Positions 29,269 through 41,369 of a stretch of 64,000 bases of DNA are shown here, piece by piece. Position numbers and translations under genes: made by a program. Numbering within the stretch: position 1 is the first letter of the stretch; each line of letters begins with the position of its first letter. The notes beneath the pieces were generated by a model. That model did not search any database. It was given only the letters and a program-made list of their open reading frames with translations, and was not told the DNA's origin. This DNA comes from the human T2T-CHM13v2.0 reference genome, Homo sapiens. The DNA lies in NCBI GenBank assembly GCA_009914755.4, contig CP086569.2, positions 31,872,001-31,936,000 of the forward strand. Reading direction: 5' to 3'.

Positions 29269-29566
29269 TTTTTTTTTAGACAGAGTCTTGTCCTGTTGCA
29301 CAGGGTGGAGTACAATGGCGCCATCTTTGCTCACTGCAACATCTGCCTCACGGGTCCAAGCGATTGTCCTCCCTCAGCCTCCCAGGTAGCTGGGACTACA
29401 CCACACTGGGACTACACCAGCTGCCACCATGCCTAGCTAATTTTTTGGATTTTTAGTAGTGACAGCGTTTCACTGTATTGGCCAGGATGGTCTTGATCTC
29501 TTCACCTTGTGATCCCCTTGCCTTGGCCTCCAAATTTGCTGGGATTACAGGCCTGAGCCAAGATCC
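29269..29566 (-). mobile_element. Alu, unit 13
   Basis: Same element at the same position in the unit. Confidence 0.93.
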
Positions 29567-31684
29567 ATATTTTTTAAATGAAAAACAATTTCAAAGGTAC
29601 TCTGCTTGGTACAATAATCAAATGTATAAACTGAGGAATAAAACATAACCATGAAACCTACTTATAACTGCATATGGAAAATACAGAGGATAATTTTTTA
29701 AATATCATATTTTGAAAGCCTTAACTAGTAATTTGAAGAGTTGGCATTTGAAAGGCCAGTATGAATATACCTTCAAAGCAGCAACACAGGTTCCCCATGA
29801 GAAAAAGCAAACTCAGGGAAAATAAAACCACAAAGGTTCCATCTCTTCTGACCTTTGAAAGACACAGCACAGACAGTGGTCCTTAGGACGAAGAGCAGGA
29901 GACCCCTAATTCCGTCACCATGGCGATAGGGCATAAACATTGCTGGGTGAGGGCACAATCCACATTGTGAGGTCCAACTGCTGCCAGGAAGACAGGAGTG
30001 CTTTTACATAGACCGAAAGGTCATTGAAGGTTCAGAGTTTTGTTTCAAGAACTGAATCCCAAGCCCACACGTTATTAGGCTGCGCTTCTTAAAACAAGTT
30101 ATGAGATGGGAAAAAGGGCACCTACAAACATACGTATACATTATGTATATAATAATATACAGTATCATATATATAATATATATAACCCATGTATAATATT
30201 GTTTTACATCCTGCATCTTATATTATATATATTGTATAAAATATAATAATTGATAATATATAAATTTTATATTTATACAATATGACATATAGTATATATT
30301 ATAATTTATTACATATATAATATATGTTATATATCATATATAGAATATATTCTACGGTTAATATACGTATTAAATATAAATTATACATTATATATATTAT
30401 ATATAATATATCTGCTATATATAATACCCATTATGCATAATATATATATTATGTCTATGTTATATATAGTATAAAACAACATATAATAATATATAATTGT
30501 ATATATAAAGTGCGACATATAATATATATTATATTTTATGACATATGTAATATATATTATATATTATATATAATACGTTGTATGTATAATACCTATATTA
30601 AATATAAATTATATGACTATGTTATTAATTACATGTCACATATGTTATATATTATATATTTTACATAGAATATACCGGTTACATACAATATATACTATGT
30701 TACCTATAATGTATAATTTATTACATGTAAAATAAAGAATGCAATATATTATGTATAATTTATAATATACAATATGTGGAATGTGATATATATAACATAT
30801 AATATATGATATATGATATACAGTATACGATATATAACATACAATATATGATACCTAATATATATGGTATACAATATATATTTTATGATATGTATTCTCT
30901 ATGTTTTATATTCTGTTATATATAACTATTTGAAATTATATATAACTGTATAATATTTTATGTAAATATGTAATATAATATATAACTATATAATATATTA
31001 TATATAACGATATATTATGTTATATATACTTTTATAACATAATTTACATAAAATATCATAATATAATATATATTATATTATTTCACATTACATAATATAT
31101 ATTACATATCACCCAATATAAGTAACATACATAATATTATAATATAGATTATATTATGTTATATTAAATATCATATATATATTGTATCATATATTCTATA
31201 ATATATTTGATACATTATATAATATGTATGTTGTCTATTATGTGATATATATAACTATATATAATTATATTATTATACATATTACTAGATAAACATGTAA
31301 TTCTACATATTTTCATTTTTAATATATAGAATTAGATAATCATATATAATTATTTATATTCTATAAAAAATTATATCATTATATAAATTATAATATATAA
31401 AAATTATAATATGTACTACAAATATATATATTATATATCATATATGATATAGTACCTTTGTTATATATCATAATACATATAAATGTGTGTTATGTTATCT
31501 ATAATTATATAATTTCATATATAAGATGTATAATATGTATTATATATTATATATGTTATGTAATATATATAGTATATATAAGATGACACAGGATAAATAT
31601 TATATACTATGACATATAAAATATATGAGGTTATATGTTACATATAAGGCATAGCACATAACATGTAATATATATCATATATAA

Positions 31685-31982
31685 TTTTTTTTTAGACAGA
31701 GTCTTGTCCTGTTGCACAGGGTGGAGTACAATGGCGCCATCTTTGCTCACTGCAACATCTGCCTCACGGGTCCAAGCGATTGTCCTCCCTCAGCCTCCCA
31801 GGTAGCTGGGAGTACACCACACTGGGACTACACCAGCTGCCACCATGCCTAGCTAATTTTTTGGATTTTTAGTAGTGACAGCGTTTCACTGTATTGGCCA
31901 GGATGGTCTTGATCTCTTCACCTTGTGATCCCCTTGCCTTGGCCTCCAAATTTGCTGGGATTACAGGCCTGAGCCAAGATCC
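31685..31982 (-). mobile_element. Alu, unit 14
   Basis: Same element; variant 'gctgggagtacaccacactggg'. Confidence 0.93.
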
Positions 31983-36832: not shown

Positions 36833-38950
36833 ATATTTTTTAAATGAAAAAAAATTTCAAAGGTACTCTGCTTGGTACAATAATCAAATGTATAAACTGA
36901 GGAATAAAACATAACCATGAAACCTACTTAAAACTGCATATGGAAAATACAGAGGATAATTTTTTAAATAACATATTTTGAAAGCCTTAACTAGTAATTT
37001 GAAGAGTTGGCATTTGAAAGGCCAGTACGAATATACCTTCAAAGCAGCAACACAGGTTCCCCATGAGAAAAAGCAATCTCAGGGAAAATAAAACCAGAAA
37101 GGTTCAATCTCTTCTGACCTTTGAAAGACACAGCACAAACAGTGGTCCTTAGGACGAAGAGCAGGAGACCCCTAATTCCGTCACCATGGCGATAGGGCAT
37201 AAACATTGCTGGGTGAGGGCACAATCCACATTGTGAGGTCCAACTGCTGCCAGGAAGACAGGAGTGCTTTTACATAGACCGAAAGGTCATTGAAGGCTCA
37301 GAGTTTTGTTTCAAGAACTGAATCCCAAGCCCACACGTTATTAGGCTGCGCTTCTTAAAACAAGTTATGAGATGGGAAAAAGGGCACCTACAAACACACG
37401 TATACATTATGTATATAATAATATACAGTATTATATATATAATATATATAACCCATGTATAATATTGTTTTACATCCTGCATCTTATATTATATATATTG
37501 TATAAAATATAATAATTGATAATATATAAATTTTATATTTATACAATATGACATATAGTATATATTATAATTTATTACATATATAATATATGTTATATAT
37601 CATATATAGAATATATTATACGGTTAATATACGTATTAAATATAAATTATACATTATATATATTATATATAATATATCTGCTATATATAATACCCATTAT
37701 GCATAATATATATATTATGTCTATGTTATATATAGTATAAAACAACATATAATAATATATAATTGTATATATAAAACGTGACATATAATATATATTATAT
37801 TTTTTGACATATGTAATATATATTATATATTATATATAATACGTTGTATGTATAATACCTATATTAAATATAAATTATATGACTATGTTATTAATTACAT
37901 GTCACATATGTTATATATTATATATTTTACATAGAATATACCGGTTACATACAATATATACTATGTTACCTATAATGTATAATTTATTACATGTAAAATA
38001 AAGAATGCAATATATTATGTATAATTTATAATATACAATATGTGGAATGTGATATATATAACATATAATATATGATATATGATATACAGTATATGATATA
38101 TAACATACAATATATGATACCTAATATATATGGTATACAATATATATTTTATGATATGTATTCTATATGTTTTATATTCTGTTATATATAACTATTTGAA
38201 ATTATATATAACTGTATAATATTTTATGTAAATATGTAATATAATATATAACTATATAATATATTATATATAACTATATATTATGTTATATATACTTTTA
38301 TAACATAATTTACATAAAATATCATAATATAATATATATTATATTATTTCATATTACATAATATATATTACATATCACCCAATATAAGTAACATACATAA
38401 CATTATAATATAGATTATATTATGTTATATTAAATATCATATATATCATGTATCATATATTCTATAATATATATGATACATTATATAATATGTATGTTGT
38501 CTATTATGTGATATATATAACTATATATAATTATATTATTATACATATTACTAGATAAACATGTAATTCTACATATTTTCATTTATAATATATAGAATTA
38601 TATAATCATATATAATTATTTATATTCTATAAAAAATTATATAATTATATAAATTATAATATATAAAAATTATAATATGTACTACAAATATATATATTAT
38701 ATATCATATATGATATAGTACCTTTGTTATATATCATAATACATATAAATGTGTATTATGTTATCTATAATTATATAATTTCACATATAAGATGTATAAT
38801 ATGTATTATATATTATATATGTTATGTAATATATATAGTATATATAAGATGACACAGGATAAATATTATATACTATGACATATAAAATATATGAGGTTAT
38901 ATGTTACATATAAGGCATAGCACATAACATGTAATATATATCATATATAA

Positions 38951-39248
38951 TTTTTTTTTAGACAGAGTCTTGTCCTGTTGCACAGGGTGGAGTACAATGG
39001 CGCCATCTTTGCTCACTGCAACATCTGCCTCACGGGTCCAAGCGATTGTCCTCCCTCAGCCTCCCAGGTAGCTGGGACTACACCACACTGGGACTACACC
39101 AGCTGCCACCATGCCTAGCTAATTTTTTGGATTTTTAGTAGTGACAGCGTTTCACTGTATTGGCCAGGATGGTCTTGATCTCTTCACCTTGTGATCCCCT
39201 TGCCTTGGCCTCCAAATTTGCTGGGATTACAGGCCTGAGCCAAGATCC
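38951..39248 (-). mobile_element. Alu, unit 17
   Basis: Same element at the same position in the unit. Confidence 0.93.
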
Positions 39249-41369
39249 ATATTTTTTAAATGAAAAAAAATTTCAAAGGTACTCTGCTTGGTACAATAAT
39301 CAAATGTATAAACTGAGGAATAAAACATAACCATGAAACCTACTTAAAACTGCATATGGAAAATACAGAGGATAATTTTTTAAATAACATATTTTGAAAG
39401 CCTTAACTAGTAATTTGAAGAGTTGGCATTTGAAAGGCCAGTACGAATATACCTTCAAAGCAGCAACACAGGTTCCCCATGAGAAAAAGCAATCTCAGGG
39501 AAAATAAAACCAGAAAGGTTCAATCTCTTCTGACCTTTGAAAGACACAGCACAGACAGTGGTCCTTAGGACGAAGAGCAGGAGACCCCTAATTCCGTCAC
39601 CATGGCAATAGGGCATAAACATTGCTGGGTGAGGGCACAATCCACATTGTGAGGTCCAACTGCTGCCAGGAAGACAGGAGTGCTTTTACATAGACCGAAA
39701 GGTCATTGAAGGCTCAGAGTTTTGTTTCAAGAACTGAATCCCAAGCCCACACGTTATTAGGCTGCGCTTCTTAAAACAAGTTATGAGATGGGAAAAAGGG
39801 CACCTACAAACATACGTATACATTATGTATATAATAATATACAGTGTCATATATATAATATATATAACCTATGTATAATATTGTTTTACATCCTGCATCT
39901 TATGTTATATATATTGTATAAACTATAATAATTGATAATATATAACTTTTATAATTATACAATATGACATATAGTATATATTATAATTTATGACATATAT
40001 AATATATGTTATATATCATATACAGAATATATTATACGGTTAATATACGTATTAAATATAAATTATACATTATATATATTATATATGATATATCTGTTAT
40101 ATATAATACCCATTATGCATAATATATATATTATGTCTATGTTATATATAGTATAAAACAACATATAATAATATATAATTGTATATATAAATGCGACATA
40201 TAATATATATTATATTTTATAACATATGTAATATATATTATATATTATATATAATACGTTGTATGTATAATACCTATATTAAATATATATTATATGACTA
40301 TGTTAATTATTACATGTCACATGTGTTATATATTATATATTTTACATAGAATATACCGGTTACATACAATATATACCATGTTACCTATAATGTATAATTT
40401 ATTACATGTAAAATAAAGAATGCAATATATTATGTATAATTTATAATATACAATATGTGGAATGTGATATATATAACATATAATATATGATATATGATAT
40501 ACAGTATATGATATATAACATACAATATATGATTTCTAATATATATGGTATACAATATATATTTTATGATATGTATTCTATATGTTTTATATTCTGTTAT
40601 ATATAACTATTTGAAATTATATATAACTGTATAATATTTTATGTAAATATGTAATATAATATATATAACTATATAATATATTATATATAACTATATATTA
40701 TGTTATATATACTTTTATAACATAATTTACATAAAATATCATAATATAATATATATTATATTATTTCATATTACATAATATATATTACATATCACCCAAT
40801 ATAACTAACATACATAATATTATAATATAGATTATATTGTGTTATATTAAATATCATATATATCATGTATCATATATTCTATAATATATATTACACATTA
40901 TATAATATGTATGTTGTCTATTATGTGATATATATAACTATATATATAATTATATTTTTATACATATAACTAGATAAACATGTAATTCTACATATTTTCA
41001 TTTATAATATGTAGAATTATATAATCATATATAGTTATTTATATTCTATAAAAAATTTTATCATTATATAAATTATAATATATAAAAATTATAATATGTA
41101 CTACAAATATATATATTATATATCATATATGATATAGTACCTTTGTTATATATCACAATACATATAAATGTGTATTATGTTATGTATAATTATATAATTT
41201 CATATATAAGATGTATAATATGTATCATATATTATATATGTTATGTAATATATATAGTATATATAAGATGACACAGGATAAATATTATATACTATGACAT
41301 ATAAAATATATGAGGTTATATGTTACATATAAGGCATAGCACATAACATGTAATATATATCATATATAA

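What the first reader, a model, noticed from the sequence alone, without database searches (positions are those of the whole stretch)
29269..41369. Transition zone with mosaic or chimeric monomers suggestive of gene conversion
Units 13-17 share pieces in non-tree-like combinations. Units 14 and 15 share 'cacaagtta', 'gggagtacacc', 'aaaacgcgac' and 'tttttgacatat'. Units 15 and 17 share CpG->CpA 'ccatggcaatagg' (ORF R->C 'YCHGDG'). Units 16 and 17 share 'cttaaaactg', 'cagtacgaat', 'gcaatctcag' and 'aaaccagaaagg' (ORF 'NLSGFIFPEIAF'). Unit 17 is therefore 16-like on its 5' side and 15-like at one site downstream. This pattern is expected from short conversion tracts or unequal crossovers between misaligned monomers.
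Basis: seen in the sequence. Interest (0 to 1): 0.5.

Follow-up and report, generated by a model that had tools for sequence, protein, structure and literature searches.

The report
Hybrid repeat units in human DYZ2 satellite
The window is an ordinary array of the human 2.4-kb DYZ2/HSat1B satellite; its "mosaic" units are real, but are mostly hybrid monomers left by out-of-register exchanges, a process already documented for this satellite.

Summary
The sequence observation holds. Of 22 informative sites, 103 of 231 site pairs fail the four-gamete test. The best single tree needs 9 extra steps, against 0.5-1.8 expected from recurrent mutation. The conflicts cluster along the unit (permutation p about 0.001).

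The array matches human DYZ2/HSat1B: 2,420-bp consensus, 24% GC, one CpG per 151 bp, built from a truncated Alu, a GC-richer segment and an AT-rich segment.

The mosaic is a staircase. Unit 14 is unit 15 on its 5' side and unit 13 on its 3' side. Unit 16 is unit 17 on its 5' side and unit 15 on its 3' side. That is the geometry of one-unit unequal exchange. Unit 17 is the single, abrupt junction (39805-39846) between a divergent block (units 1-16) and the canonical type (units 18-26). There is no gradual transition zone.

Two breakpoints cut the conflicts from 9 to 3 isolated sites. One of these is the CpG-to-CpA change shared by units 15 and 17. Those three could be recurrent mutations or very short conversions. 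No multi-marker conversion tract was found.

Both processes have been seen directly in DYZ2 in pedigrees, so this is known biology and of low interest.

The parts
1..64000 (.). Tandem array of 26 complete and 2 partial monomers of about 2,420 bp, of DYZ2/HSat1B type. Each monomer has a reverse-oriented truncated Alu, a GC-richer segment and an AT-rich segment of about 1.5 kb.
   Evidence: Anchor spacing is 2408-2436 bp. The consensus is 2420 bp, 24.1% GC, with 16 CpG. These match the published DYZ2 figures.
29279..31694 (+). Unit 13, divergent type A2. It shares three 3' variants with unit 14 (31207, 31319, 31335).
31695..34108 (+). Unit 14, a hybrid: the 5' 1,832 alignment columns are unit-15-like and the 3' remainder is unit-13-like.
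   Evidence: Painting; MaxChi p = 0.038; shared derived variants are perfectly separated by position.
33500..33549 (+). Breakpoint interval in unit 14 (alignment columns 1832-1881). The end of the 14/15 similarity and the start of the 13/14 similarity fall in this same interval.
34109..36544 (+). Unit 15: the 5' part is unit-14-like, and the 3' part from about column 1342 is unit-16-like. It carries a private 22-bp insertion at 35829-35850 and CpG-to-CpA at 34755.
   Evidence: (p = 1e-4)
36545..38960 (+). Unit 16, a hybrid. The 5' part is identical to unit 17 over columns 1-593. The 3' part from about column 1336 is unit-15-like. Columns 886-1335 are of the ancestral A2 type.
   Evidence: p = 1e-4
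37336..37430 (+). Switch interval in unit 16 (columns 792-886), from unit-17-like to unit-15/A2-like.
38961..41379 (+). Unit 17, the junction monomer. The 5' 845 columns are of the divergent A2 type and resemble unit 16. The remainder is of the canonical B type, with about 12 private changes.
   Evidence: Diagnostic sites; MaxChi p = 5e-5; divergence from the external consensus is 1.26% in the 5' part and 0.89% in the 3' part.
39805..39846 (+). Junction between the divergent (A) and canonical (B) blocks. It is resolved to a stretch of about 40 bp that is identical in both types, at the border of the GC-richer and AT-rich segments.
34755..34755 (+). CpG-to-CpA in unit 15. The same change is at 39607 in unit 17 and is absent from unit 16 between them.
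39607..39607 (+). CpG-to-CpA in unit 17. It conflicts with the 16/17 grouping. A conversion here could be at most about 229 bp long (between columns 562 and 792).
33955..33955 (+). T-to-C in unit 14 (column 2291), shared with the canonical block. It is an isolated conflict, not at a CpG.

Best explanation
The window is part of a human DYZ2/HSat1B satellite array. The chromosome cannot be determined here: it could be Yq12 or an acrocentric short arm.

The array grows and shrinks by out-of-register exchange between misaligned copies. This could be unequal sister-chromatid exchange or, equivalently, replication slippage by whole units. Each such event duplicates or deletes one or more 2.4-kb periods, and its breakpoint can fall anywhere inside a monomer. 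When the array is cut at a fixed phase, the new monomer therefore looks chimeric.

Unit 14 (5' like unit 15, 3' like unit 13) and unit 16 (5' like unit 17, 3' like unit 15) are duplication hybrids of this kind. Unit 17 has the opposite geometry: 5' like its left neighbours and 3' like its right neighbours. It is the fusion point between a roughly 2% divergent block (units 1-16) and the canonical type (units 18-26). That is what a deletion-type exchange, or the edge of an expansion, would leave.

The few isolated shared sites left over are either recurrent mutations or very short conversions. They include the CpG-to-CpA change shared by units 15 and 17.

Shown here: the mosaic structure, the breakpoint intervals, their statistical support and the step in divergence. 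Inferred: the molecular mechanism, the order of events and the human origin.
For: Identity: the consensus is 2420 bp, 24.1% GC, with 1 CpG per 151 bp. Published DYZ2 values are a 2,420-bp consensus, 24% GC and 1 CpG per 150 bp, with an AT-rich repeat, a truncated Alu and HSATI. Thirty-six short contigs in metagenomes and bacterial assemblies carry an exact 30-bp match, and 33 of them gave aligned fragments, mostly 96-100% identical to the window consensus. This is the kind of HSat1B contamination described.

Mosaic: the best single tree needs 9 extra steps, and two breakpoints leave 3. PHI-like p is 0.0006-0.018. MaxChi triplet tests give: unit 17 = 16|B, p = 5e-5; unit 16 = 17|15, p = 1e-4; unit 15 = 14|16, p = 1e-4; unit 14 = 15|13, p = 0.038. 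Copying-model painting gives the same staircase.

Geometry: both duplication hybrids lie between their two parents, with the 5' part matching the right neighbour and the 3' part matching the left neighbour. In unit 14 both similarity boundaries fall in the same 49-column interval.

Junction: at the 32 type-diagnostic columns, unit 17 is A-like at five of the six 5' columns (7, 31, 63, 550, 845). From column 910 onward it is B-like at 23 of 26; two of the three exceptions are polymorphic within B. Divergence from the external consensus drops from 41-68 differences per unit (units 13-16) to 16-26 (units 18-26), with unit 17 split between the two levels.

The same process is visible elsewhere in the window: a 9,680-bp (4-unit) and a 4,824-bp (2-unit) near-identical tandem duplication.

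Direct observation in pedigrees: five de novo structural variants of 2,416-4,839 bp, each affecting whole DYZ2 units, averaging about one per Y transmission (PMC12240836). Rhie et al. attribute Yq12 patterns to unequal exchange and report sister-chromatid exchanges there.
Against: The unit-16 staircase is not a clean one-period copy. In columns 886-1335 unit 16 matches neither unit 15 nor unit 17. This requires either six later changes on the unit-15 lineage or a further exchange.

The two halves of the proposed 13/14/15 duplication differ somewhat in divergence: 7 events in 594 columns against 3 in 946 (my own binomial estimate gives p of about 0.05). More events than the minimum may therefore have occurred.

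The unit-14 triplet test is only p = 0.038, uncorrected for multiple tests.

Three conflicts remain. Under uniform mutation rates, three or more are expected only 1% of the time, so some conversion may be present.

Long conversion tracts between adjacent units could mimic part of the pattern.

Assembly errors in a satellite cannot be excluded from the sequence alone.
Confidence: 0.72

Rival explanations
1. Short-tract interlocus gene conversion between non-adjacent monomers produced the mosaic.
For: Three isolated conflicts remain after two breakpoints: column 308 (or 118), column 647 (units 15 and 17) and column 2291 (unit 14 shares the canonical state). Flanking markers allow tracts of up to about 229 bp at column 647 and about 330 bp at column 2291. 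Within the near-identical pair of units 20 and 25, 3 of 8 differences are states shared with other units. In pedigrees, 29% of Yq12 de novo SNVs have identical matches at non-orthologous positions. In a later preprint, 17% of such events are classed as gene conversion.
Against: No candidate tract carries more than one marker. A GENECONV-like scan of 320 unit pairs gave no fragment significant after Bonferroni correction (best p = 0.001). Six of the nine conflicts are removed by just two breakpoints that have duplication geometry. Column 647 is a CpG transition; with five such events on 32 CpG positions, my own estimate of the chance of a coincidence is about 0.28, based on the counts. Three or more residual conflicts occur in 6-28% of no-recombination simulations with rate heterogeneity. 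None of the 36 external contigs has the A at column 647, so no common donor type is evident.
Confidence: 0.15
2. There was no exchange at all: the conflicts are parallel mutations at hypermutable sites in an AT-rich, methylated satellite.
For: The mutation rate in Yq12 satellite is reported to be at least 30-fold above euchromatin. CpG positions vary more often than others here, 22% against 13%, though not significantly.
Against: Nine conflicts among 22 informative sites were never reached in 3,000 simulations at any level of rate heterogeneity tried. The conflicts cluster by position. Runs of 593-769 identical columns cross unit borders.
Confidence: 0.03
3. Assembly artefact: chimeric units were created by mis-joining or consensus polishing of near-identical satellite reads.
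For: Satellite arrays are among the hardest regions to assemble. No read data are available here.
Against: Each of units 13-17 carries several private variants and a distinct length. The staircase geometry is what biology predicts and is not expected from random mis-joins. Similar multi-unit duplications are published for validated assemblies.
Confidence: 0.07

Closest known systems
DYZ2 / HSat1B satellite of human Yq12 and acrocentric short arms
   Same: Unit length (2,413-2,420 bp), 24% GC and CpG density match. So does the composite unit of a truncated Alu, a GC-richer HSATI segment and an AT-rich simple repeat. Units are about 98% identical. A block of more divergent units lies next to canonical units, and there are multi-unit tandem duplications.
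   Different: Nothing found differs. The chromosome of origin, and the position of the window within its array, cannot be determined with these tools.
Unequal crossing-over model of tandem-repeat evolution (Smith 1976; own knowledge), as applied to Yq12 by Rhie et al. 2023 and Hallast et al. 2023
   Same: Register-shifted duplications of 1, 2, 4 and 5 units are present. Hybrid monomers sit at the junctions, and their parental halves lie in the neighbouring units.
   Different: Only one product of each event is visible. Unequal exchange cannot be told apart from replication slippage by whole units.
Interlocus gene conversion in Yq12 satellites (Porubsky et al. 2025, PMC12240836; PMC13252187)
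   Same: Isolated variants are shared by non-adjacent units against the local genealogy (columns 647, 2291 and 308).
   Different: There is no multi-marker tract here. Each candidate is a single site and is equally well explained by recurrent mutation.

Membership tests
DYZ2 / HSat1B | Tandem unit of about 2.4 kb (2,413 bp modal length, 2,420 bp consensus) | tested here: met
   There are 26 units of 2408-2436 bp: seven of 2420 bp and five of 2413 bp. The consensus is 2420 bp.
DYZ2 / HSat1B | Composite unit of a truncated Alu, a GC-richer (HSATI) part and a part that is more than 85% AT | tested here: met
   GC is about 50% over the first 300 bp or so, which has a recognisable reverse Alu sequence. 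A sub-threshold Rfam hit to mir-1268 falls there; that this miRNA family is Alu-derived is my own knowledge. GC is 26-52% over the next 550 bp or so, and 13-14% in the rest sampled. No Alu model was available, so the Alu call rests on reading the sequence.
DYZ2 / HSat1B | 24% GC and about 1 CpG per 150 bp | tested here: met
   24.1% GC and 1 CpG per 151 bp, against the published values.
DYZ2 / HSat1B | Sequence identity to the published DYZ2 consensus or to T2T-Y HSat1B | tested here: inconclusive
   No human reference is held by these tools. The indirect evidence is 36 contaminant-like contigs in metagenomes and bacterial assemblies, mostly 96-100% identical to the window consensus. This fits the HSat1B contamination reported.
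DYZ2 / HSat1B | Location on Yq12 or on acrocentric short arms | not testable with these tools
   The window lies wholly inside the array, so no flanking sequence is available.
Unequal-exchange duplication hybrid | The hybrid monomer lies between its two parents, with its 5' part like the right neighbour and its 3' part like the left neighbour | tested here: met
   Unit 14 = 15|13 and unit 16 = 17|15.
Unequal-exchange duplication hybrid | The similarity spans exactly one period, with both boundaries at the same phase | tested here: inconclusive
   Met for unit 14, where both boundaries fall within columns 1832-1881. Not cleanly met for unit 16, where the boundaries are at 792-886 and about 1336.
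Gene-conversion tract | A donor-like patch with two breakpoints and at least two linked markers inside an otherwise unchanged recipient | tested here: not met
   Only single-site candidates were found. The GENECONV-like scan gave nothing significant after correction.

The most novel reading that the evidence does not exclude
The isolated shared variants may be footprints of very short (under 230-330 bp) interlocus conversion between non-adjacent DYZ2 units. They are columns 647, 2291 and 308 in units 13-17, and columns 292, 1342 and 2050 between the near-identical units 20 and 25. If so, arrays like this one could be used to measure conversion tract length and rate in Y heterochromatin from sequence alone.
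Probability: 0.3. Interest if true: 0.25.

Novelty: already known. Interest (0 to 1): 0.15.

Why it matters
It matters little beyond this window. It is a clear, base-resolved example of how a satellite array is remodelled: hybrid monomers mark where unequal exchanges happened, and one 40-bp interval marks the join between an older divergent block and the canonical repeat type. The mechanism, the satellite and even its per-generation rate of whole-unit gain and loss are already published. The practical lesson is that monomers cut at an arbitrary phase will look "mosaic" after any out-of-phase duplication, so such patterns should not be read as gene conversion without multi-marker tracts.

Tried and rejected
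- **GENECONV-like scan.** I looked for unusually long identical fragments in all 320 unit pairs. Nothing survived Bonferroni correction. Power is low because many polymorphic sites are singletons.
- **Rfam scan of one unit.** The only hit was sub-threshold, to mir-1268 (33.9 bits against a gathering score of 83). There was no SRP/Alu model hit.
- **Pfam scan of the three short ORFs in a unit.** No hits. The ORF listing finds no ORF of 100 aa or more anywhere in the window.
- **CpG hypermutability.** The trend is 22% against 13% of positions variable, which is not significant (p = 0.18).
- **The 2,413-bp units.** I checked whether they carry the published ACATACG difference. They do not: units 20, 22, 25 and 26 lack a TATATAT heptamer at columns 1273-1279 instead. 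None of the 14 external fragments covering that site has this deletion.
- **Chromosome of origin.** I tried to decide between Y and an acrocentric chromosome.
- **Gradual transition zone.** Rejected, because divergence from the canonical consensus shows a step, not a gradient.
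Full report
**What the window is**

The whole 64-kb window is one tandem array. A conserved 23-mer recurs 27 times at spacings of 2408-2436 bp, which gives 26 complete units.

Each unit has three parts:
- about 300 bp at roughly 50% GC, which reads as a reverse-oriented Alu;
- about 550 bp of moderately GC-rich sequence;
- about 1.5 kb at roughly 13% GC.

The consensus of the 26 units is 2420 bp, 24.1% GC, with 16 CpG, or 1 per 151 bp. Hallast et al. describe DYZ2/HSat1B as a unit of about 2.4 kb made of an AT-rich simple repeat, a 5'-truncated Alu and HSATI. 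They give a 2,420-bp consensus, 24% GC and 1 CpG per 150 bp. Rhie et al. give the same three-part anatomy.

A 30-bp probe from the GC-richer part found 19 metagenome contigs and 17 contigs in bacterial genome assemblies, mostly 0.6-2.5 kb long. Thirty-three of these gave aligned fragments, mostly 96-100% identical to the window consensus. One is a 1-kb piece set between 100-N gaps in a high-GC actinobacterial scaffold. This is the HSat1B contamination that Rhie et al. report. I conclude that the window is human DYZ2/HSat1B. The chromosome (Yq12 or an acrocentric short arm) cannot be determined here.

**Checking the observation**

Two are less exclusive than claimed:
- GGGAGTACACC also occurs in units 9 and 11, about 16 bp further into the monomer, apparently in the second copy of a short internal repeat.
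- TTTTTGACATAT is shared by units 14, 15 and 16.

The amino-acid strings come from 61-aa minus-strand ORFs with no Pfam match. No ORF in the window reaches 100 aa.

Units 13-17 have 22 informative sites. They support these groupings:

| Grouping | Events | Columns |
|---|---|---|
| {14,15} | 8 | 118-1335 |
| {16,17} | 5 | 387-562 |
| {14,15,16} | 2 | 1233, 1260 |
| {13,14} | 3 | 1953-2083 |
| {15,16} | 1 | 1881 |
| {13,15} | 1 | 308 |
| {15,17} | 1 | 647 |
| {14,17} | 1 | 2291 |

The tests give:
- 103 of 231 site pairs fail the four-gamete test, and Hudson-Kaplan Rm is 5.
- The best of the 15 possible trees needs 9 extra steps.
- Simulations without recombination on that tree, at four levels of rate heterogeneity, give 0.5-1.8 conflicting sites. 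None of 3,000 runs reached 9.
- Conflicts are less frequent between neighbouring informative sites than after shuffling site order, with p = 0.0006-0.018 for neighbourhoods of 1-5 sites. At 10 sites the test is not significant (p = 0.30).

**What the mosaic consists of**

The distance matrix shows three blocks:
- Units 1-8. Units 1-3 and 5-7 are near-identical pairs.
- Units 9-16. Unit 9 equals unit 11, and units 10 and 12 differ at 4 sites.
- Units 17-26.

At the 32 columns that separate units 13-16 from units 18-26, unit 17 has the unit-13-16 state at columns 7, 31, 63, 550 and 845. From column 910 onward it has the unit-18-26 state at 23 of 26 columns. Two of the three exceptions are polymorphic within units 18-26. 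A subgroup marker at column 886 narrows the switch to window positions 39805-39846. This is 40 bp of sequence identical in both types, at the border of the GC-richer and AT-rich parts.

The external contigs carry the unit-18-26 states at nearly all diagnostic columns, so that type is the canonical one. Differences from the external consensus are:
- 38-68 per unit for units 1-16, with no trend;
- 16-26 per unit for units 18-26;
- for unit 17, 1.26% in the 5' third and 0.89% in the rest.

So the change is a single step inside unit 17, not a gradual zone. Hallast et al. report that divergent DYZ2 units accumulate toward array edges, which would fit this pattern.

Within units 13-16 the pattern is a staircase. 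A copying-model painting gives:
- unit 14 = unit 15 (columns 1-1832) then unit 13 (1851 to the end);
- unit 15 = unit 14 (1-1335) then unit 16 (1342 to the end);
- unit 16 = unit 17 (1 to about 792) then unit 15;
- unit 17 = unit 16 (1-845) then canonical units.

Single-breakpoint MaxChi tests with permutation give p = 0.038, 1e-4, 1e-4 and 5e-5 respectively. Units 16 and 17 are identical over columns 1-593. A 769-column run of identity at a lag of one unit crosses the unit border. Allowing two breakpoints, one between columns 562 and 647 and one between 1335 and 1881 in the optimal segmentation, reduces the extra steps from 9 to 3.

**Mechanism**

Suppose two copies of the array misalign by one unit and exchange at phase phi. 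The product carries a new monomer made of the 5' part of the right-hand parent and the 3' part of the left-hand parent, and it sits between them. Units 14 and 16 both have exactly this arrangement.

For unit 14, the end of its similarity to unit 15 and the start of its similarity to unit 13 fall in the same 49-column interval (33500-33549). One event requires this coincidence; two independent conversion-tract ends would not predict it.

Unit 17 has the opposite arrangement: its 5' part is like the left neighbours and its 3' part like the right neighbours. This is what a deletion-type exchange or the edge of an expansion leaves.

The same process at other registers is visible elsewhere in the window:
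- Positions 1 to about 8190 repeat at offset 9,680 bp (4 units), with 11 mismatches.
- Positions 19220-24455 repeat at offset 4,824 bp (2 units), with 4 internal mismatches.
- Unit 8 switches at column 2032 to being identical to unit 10.
- A 5-unit lag links units 19-20 with units 24-25.

PHI-like tests are also significant within units 1-16 and within units 17-26. Mosaicism is therefore a property of the whole array, not of a special zone.

Whole-unit gains and losses have been seen directly in a four-generation pedigree. Five de novo structural variants of 2,416-4,839 bp each affected entire DYZ2 units, about one per Y transmission (PMC12240836). Rhie et al. ascribe Yq12 structure to unequal exchange and saw sister-chromatid exchanges there.

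**What is left for gene conversion**

Three isolated conflicts remain: column 308 (or 118), column 647 and column 2291.

Five CpG-transition events fall on the 32 CpG positions. By my own calculation from those counts, the chance that two coincide is about 0.28. DYZ2 is reported to be hypermethylated.
- Columns 308 and 2291 are not CpG sites.

Flanking markers would permit tracts of up to about 229 bp (column 647) and 330 bp (column 2291). Very short conversions therefore cannot be excluded. Interlocus conversion in DYZ1/DYZ2 is inferred for 17-29% of de novo Yq12 SNVs.

No candidate here has more than one marker, however. A GENECONV-like scan found nothing significant after correction. Three or more residual conflicts occur in 1-28% of no-recombination simulations, depending on rate heterogeneity. 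Conversion is possible but not demonstrated.

**Caveats**

- The unit-16 staircase is not a clean one-period copy. In columns 886-1335 unit 16 has the ancestral state of its block and matches neither unit 15 nor unit 17. This requires either six later changes on the unit-15 lineage or another exchange.
- The two halves of the proposed 13/14/15 duplication differ in divergence: 7 events in 594 columns against 3 in 946. By my own binomial estimate this gives p of about 0.05.
- The real history probably has more events than the minimum of two exchanges plus the junction.
- The triplet tests are not corrected for multiple testing and are not independent of each other.
- Assembly error cannot be excluded without reads.

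**Verdict**

Unequal crossover accounts for most of the pattern; gene conversion is not needed to explain it. The satellite, the mechanism and its rate are all published, so this is already known and of low interest.

Noticed in passing
window 1-8190 vs 9681-17870: A near-identical tandem duplication at an offset of 9,680 bp (4 units), with 11 mismatches. Identity decays sharply after about 8194, so the duplication junction lies inside units 4 and 8. The first copy probably starts upstream of the window.
   Followed up: partly
window 19220-24455 vs +4824: A near-identical 2-unit (4,824 bp) duplication with 4 internal mismatches. Unit 8 is itself a hybrid: from 19220 (alignment column 2032) it is identical to the tail of unit 10.
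   Followed up: partly
window 35829-35850 (unit 15): A private 22-bp insertion, TATATAACTATATAATATATTT. It is one extra copy of the 22-bp sub-repeat of the AT-rich segment and makes unit 15 the longest unit (2436 bp). Slippage within the unit is the likely cause.
   Followed up: partly
units 20, 22, 25, 26 (alignment columns 1273-1279; for example near window 47490): A shared 7-bp deletion (TATATAT) gives these non-adjacent units the 2,413-bp length. The deletion is not the ACATACG difference described by Hallast et al. None of the 14 external fragments covering the site has it.
   Followed up: partly
L025:5897-6920 (NZ_HF570958.1, Nostocoides japonicum T1-X7) and L020-L036: Bacterial genome assemblies contain pieces of this human satellite. 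In L025 a 1-kb piece sits between 100-N gaps in a scaffold of a genome with more than 70% GC. This is human contamination of the kind reported by Rhie et al.
   Followed up: partly
window 19760, 24584 vs 31808, 34222: The Alu part shows GGGACTACACC twice. The same C-to-G change appears at one position in units 14/15 and about 16 bp further along in units 9/11, apparently in the second copy. A string search therefore over-counts sharing.
   Followed up: partly
units 20 vs 25 (window 46219-48631 vs 58305-60717): This pair differs at only 8 sites. Three of those (columns 292, 1342 and 2050) are states shared with other canonical units. They could be recurrent mutations or micro-conversions. Column 1342 is a TpG/CpG site.
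   Followed up: no
window 53467-53760 (unit 23, columns 1-292): Seven of the 13 differences between the adjacent, similar units 23 and 24 cluster in the first 292 columns (the Alu part). Four are private to unit 23, two are private to unit 24, and column 292 is a shared polymorphism. The cause is unexplained.
   Followed up: no
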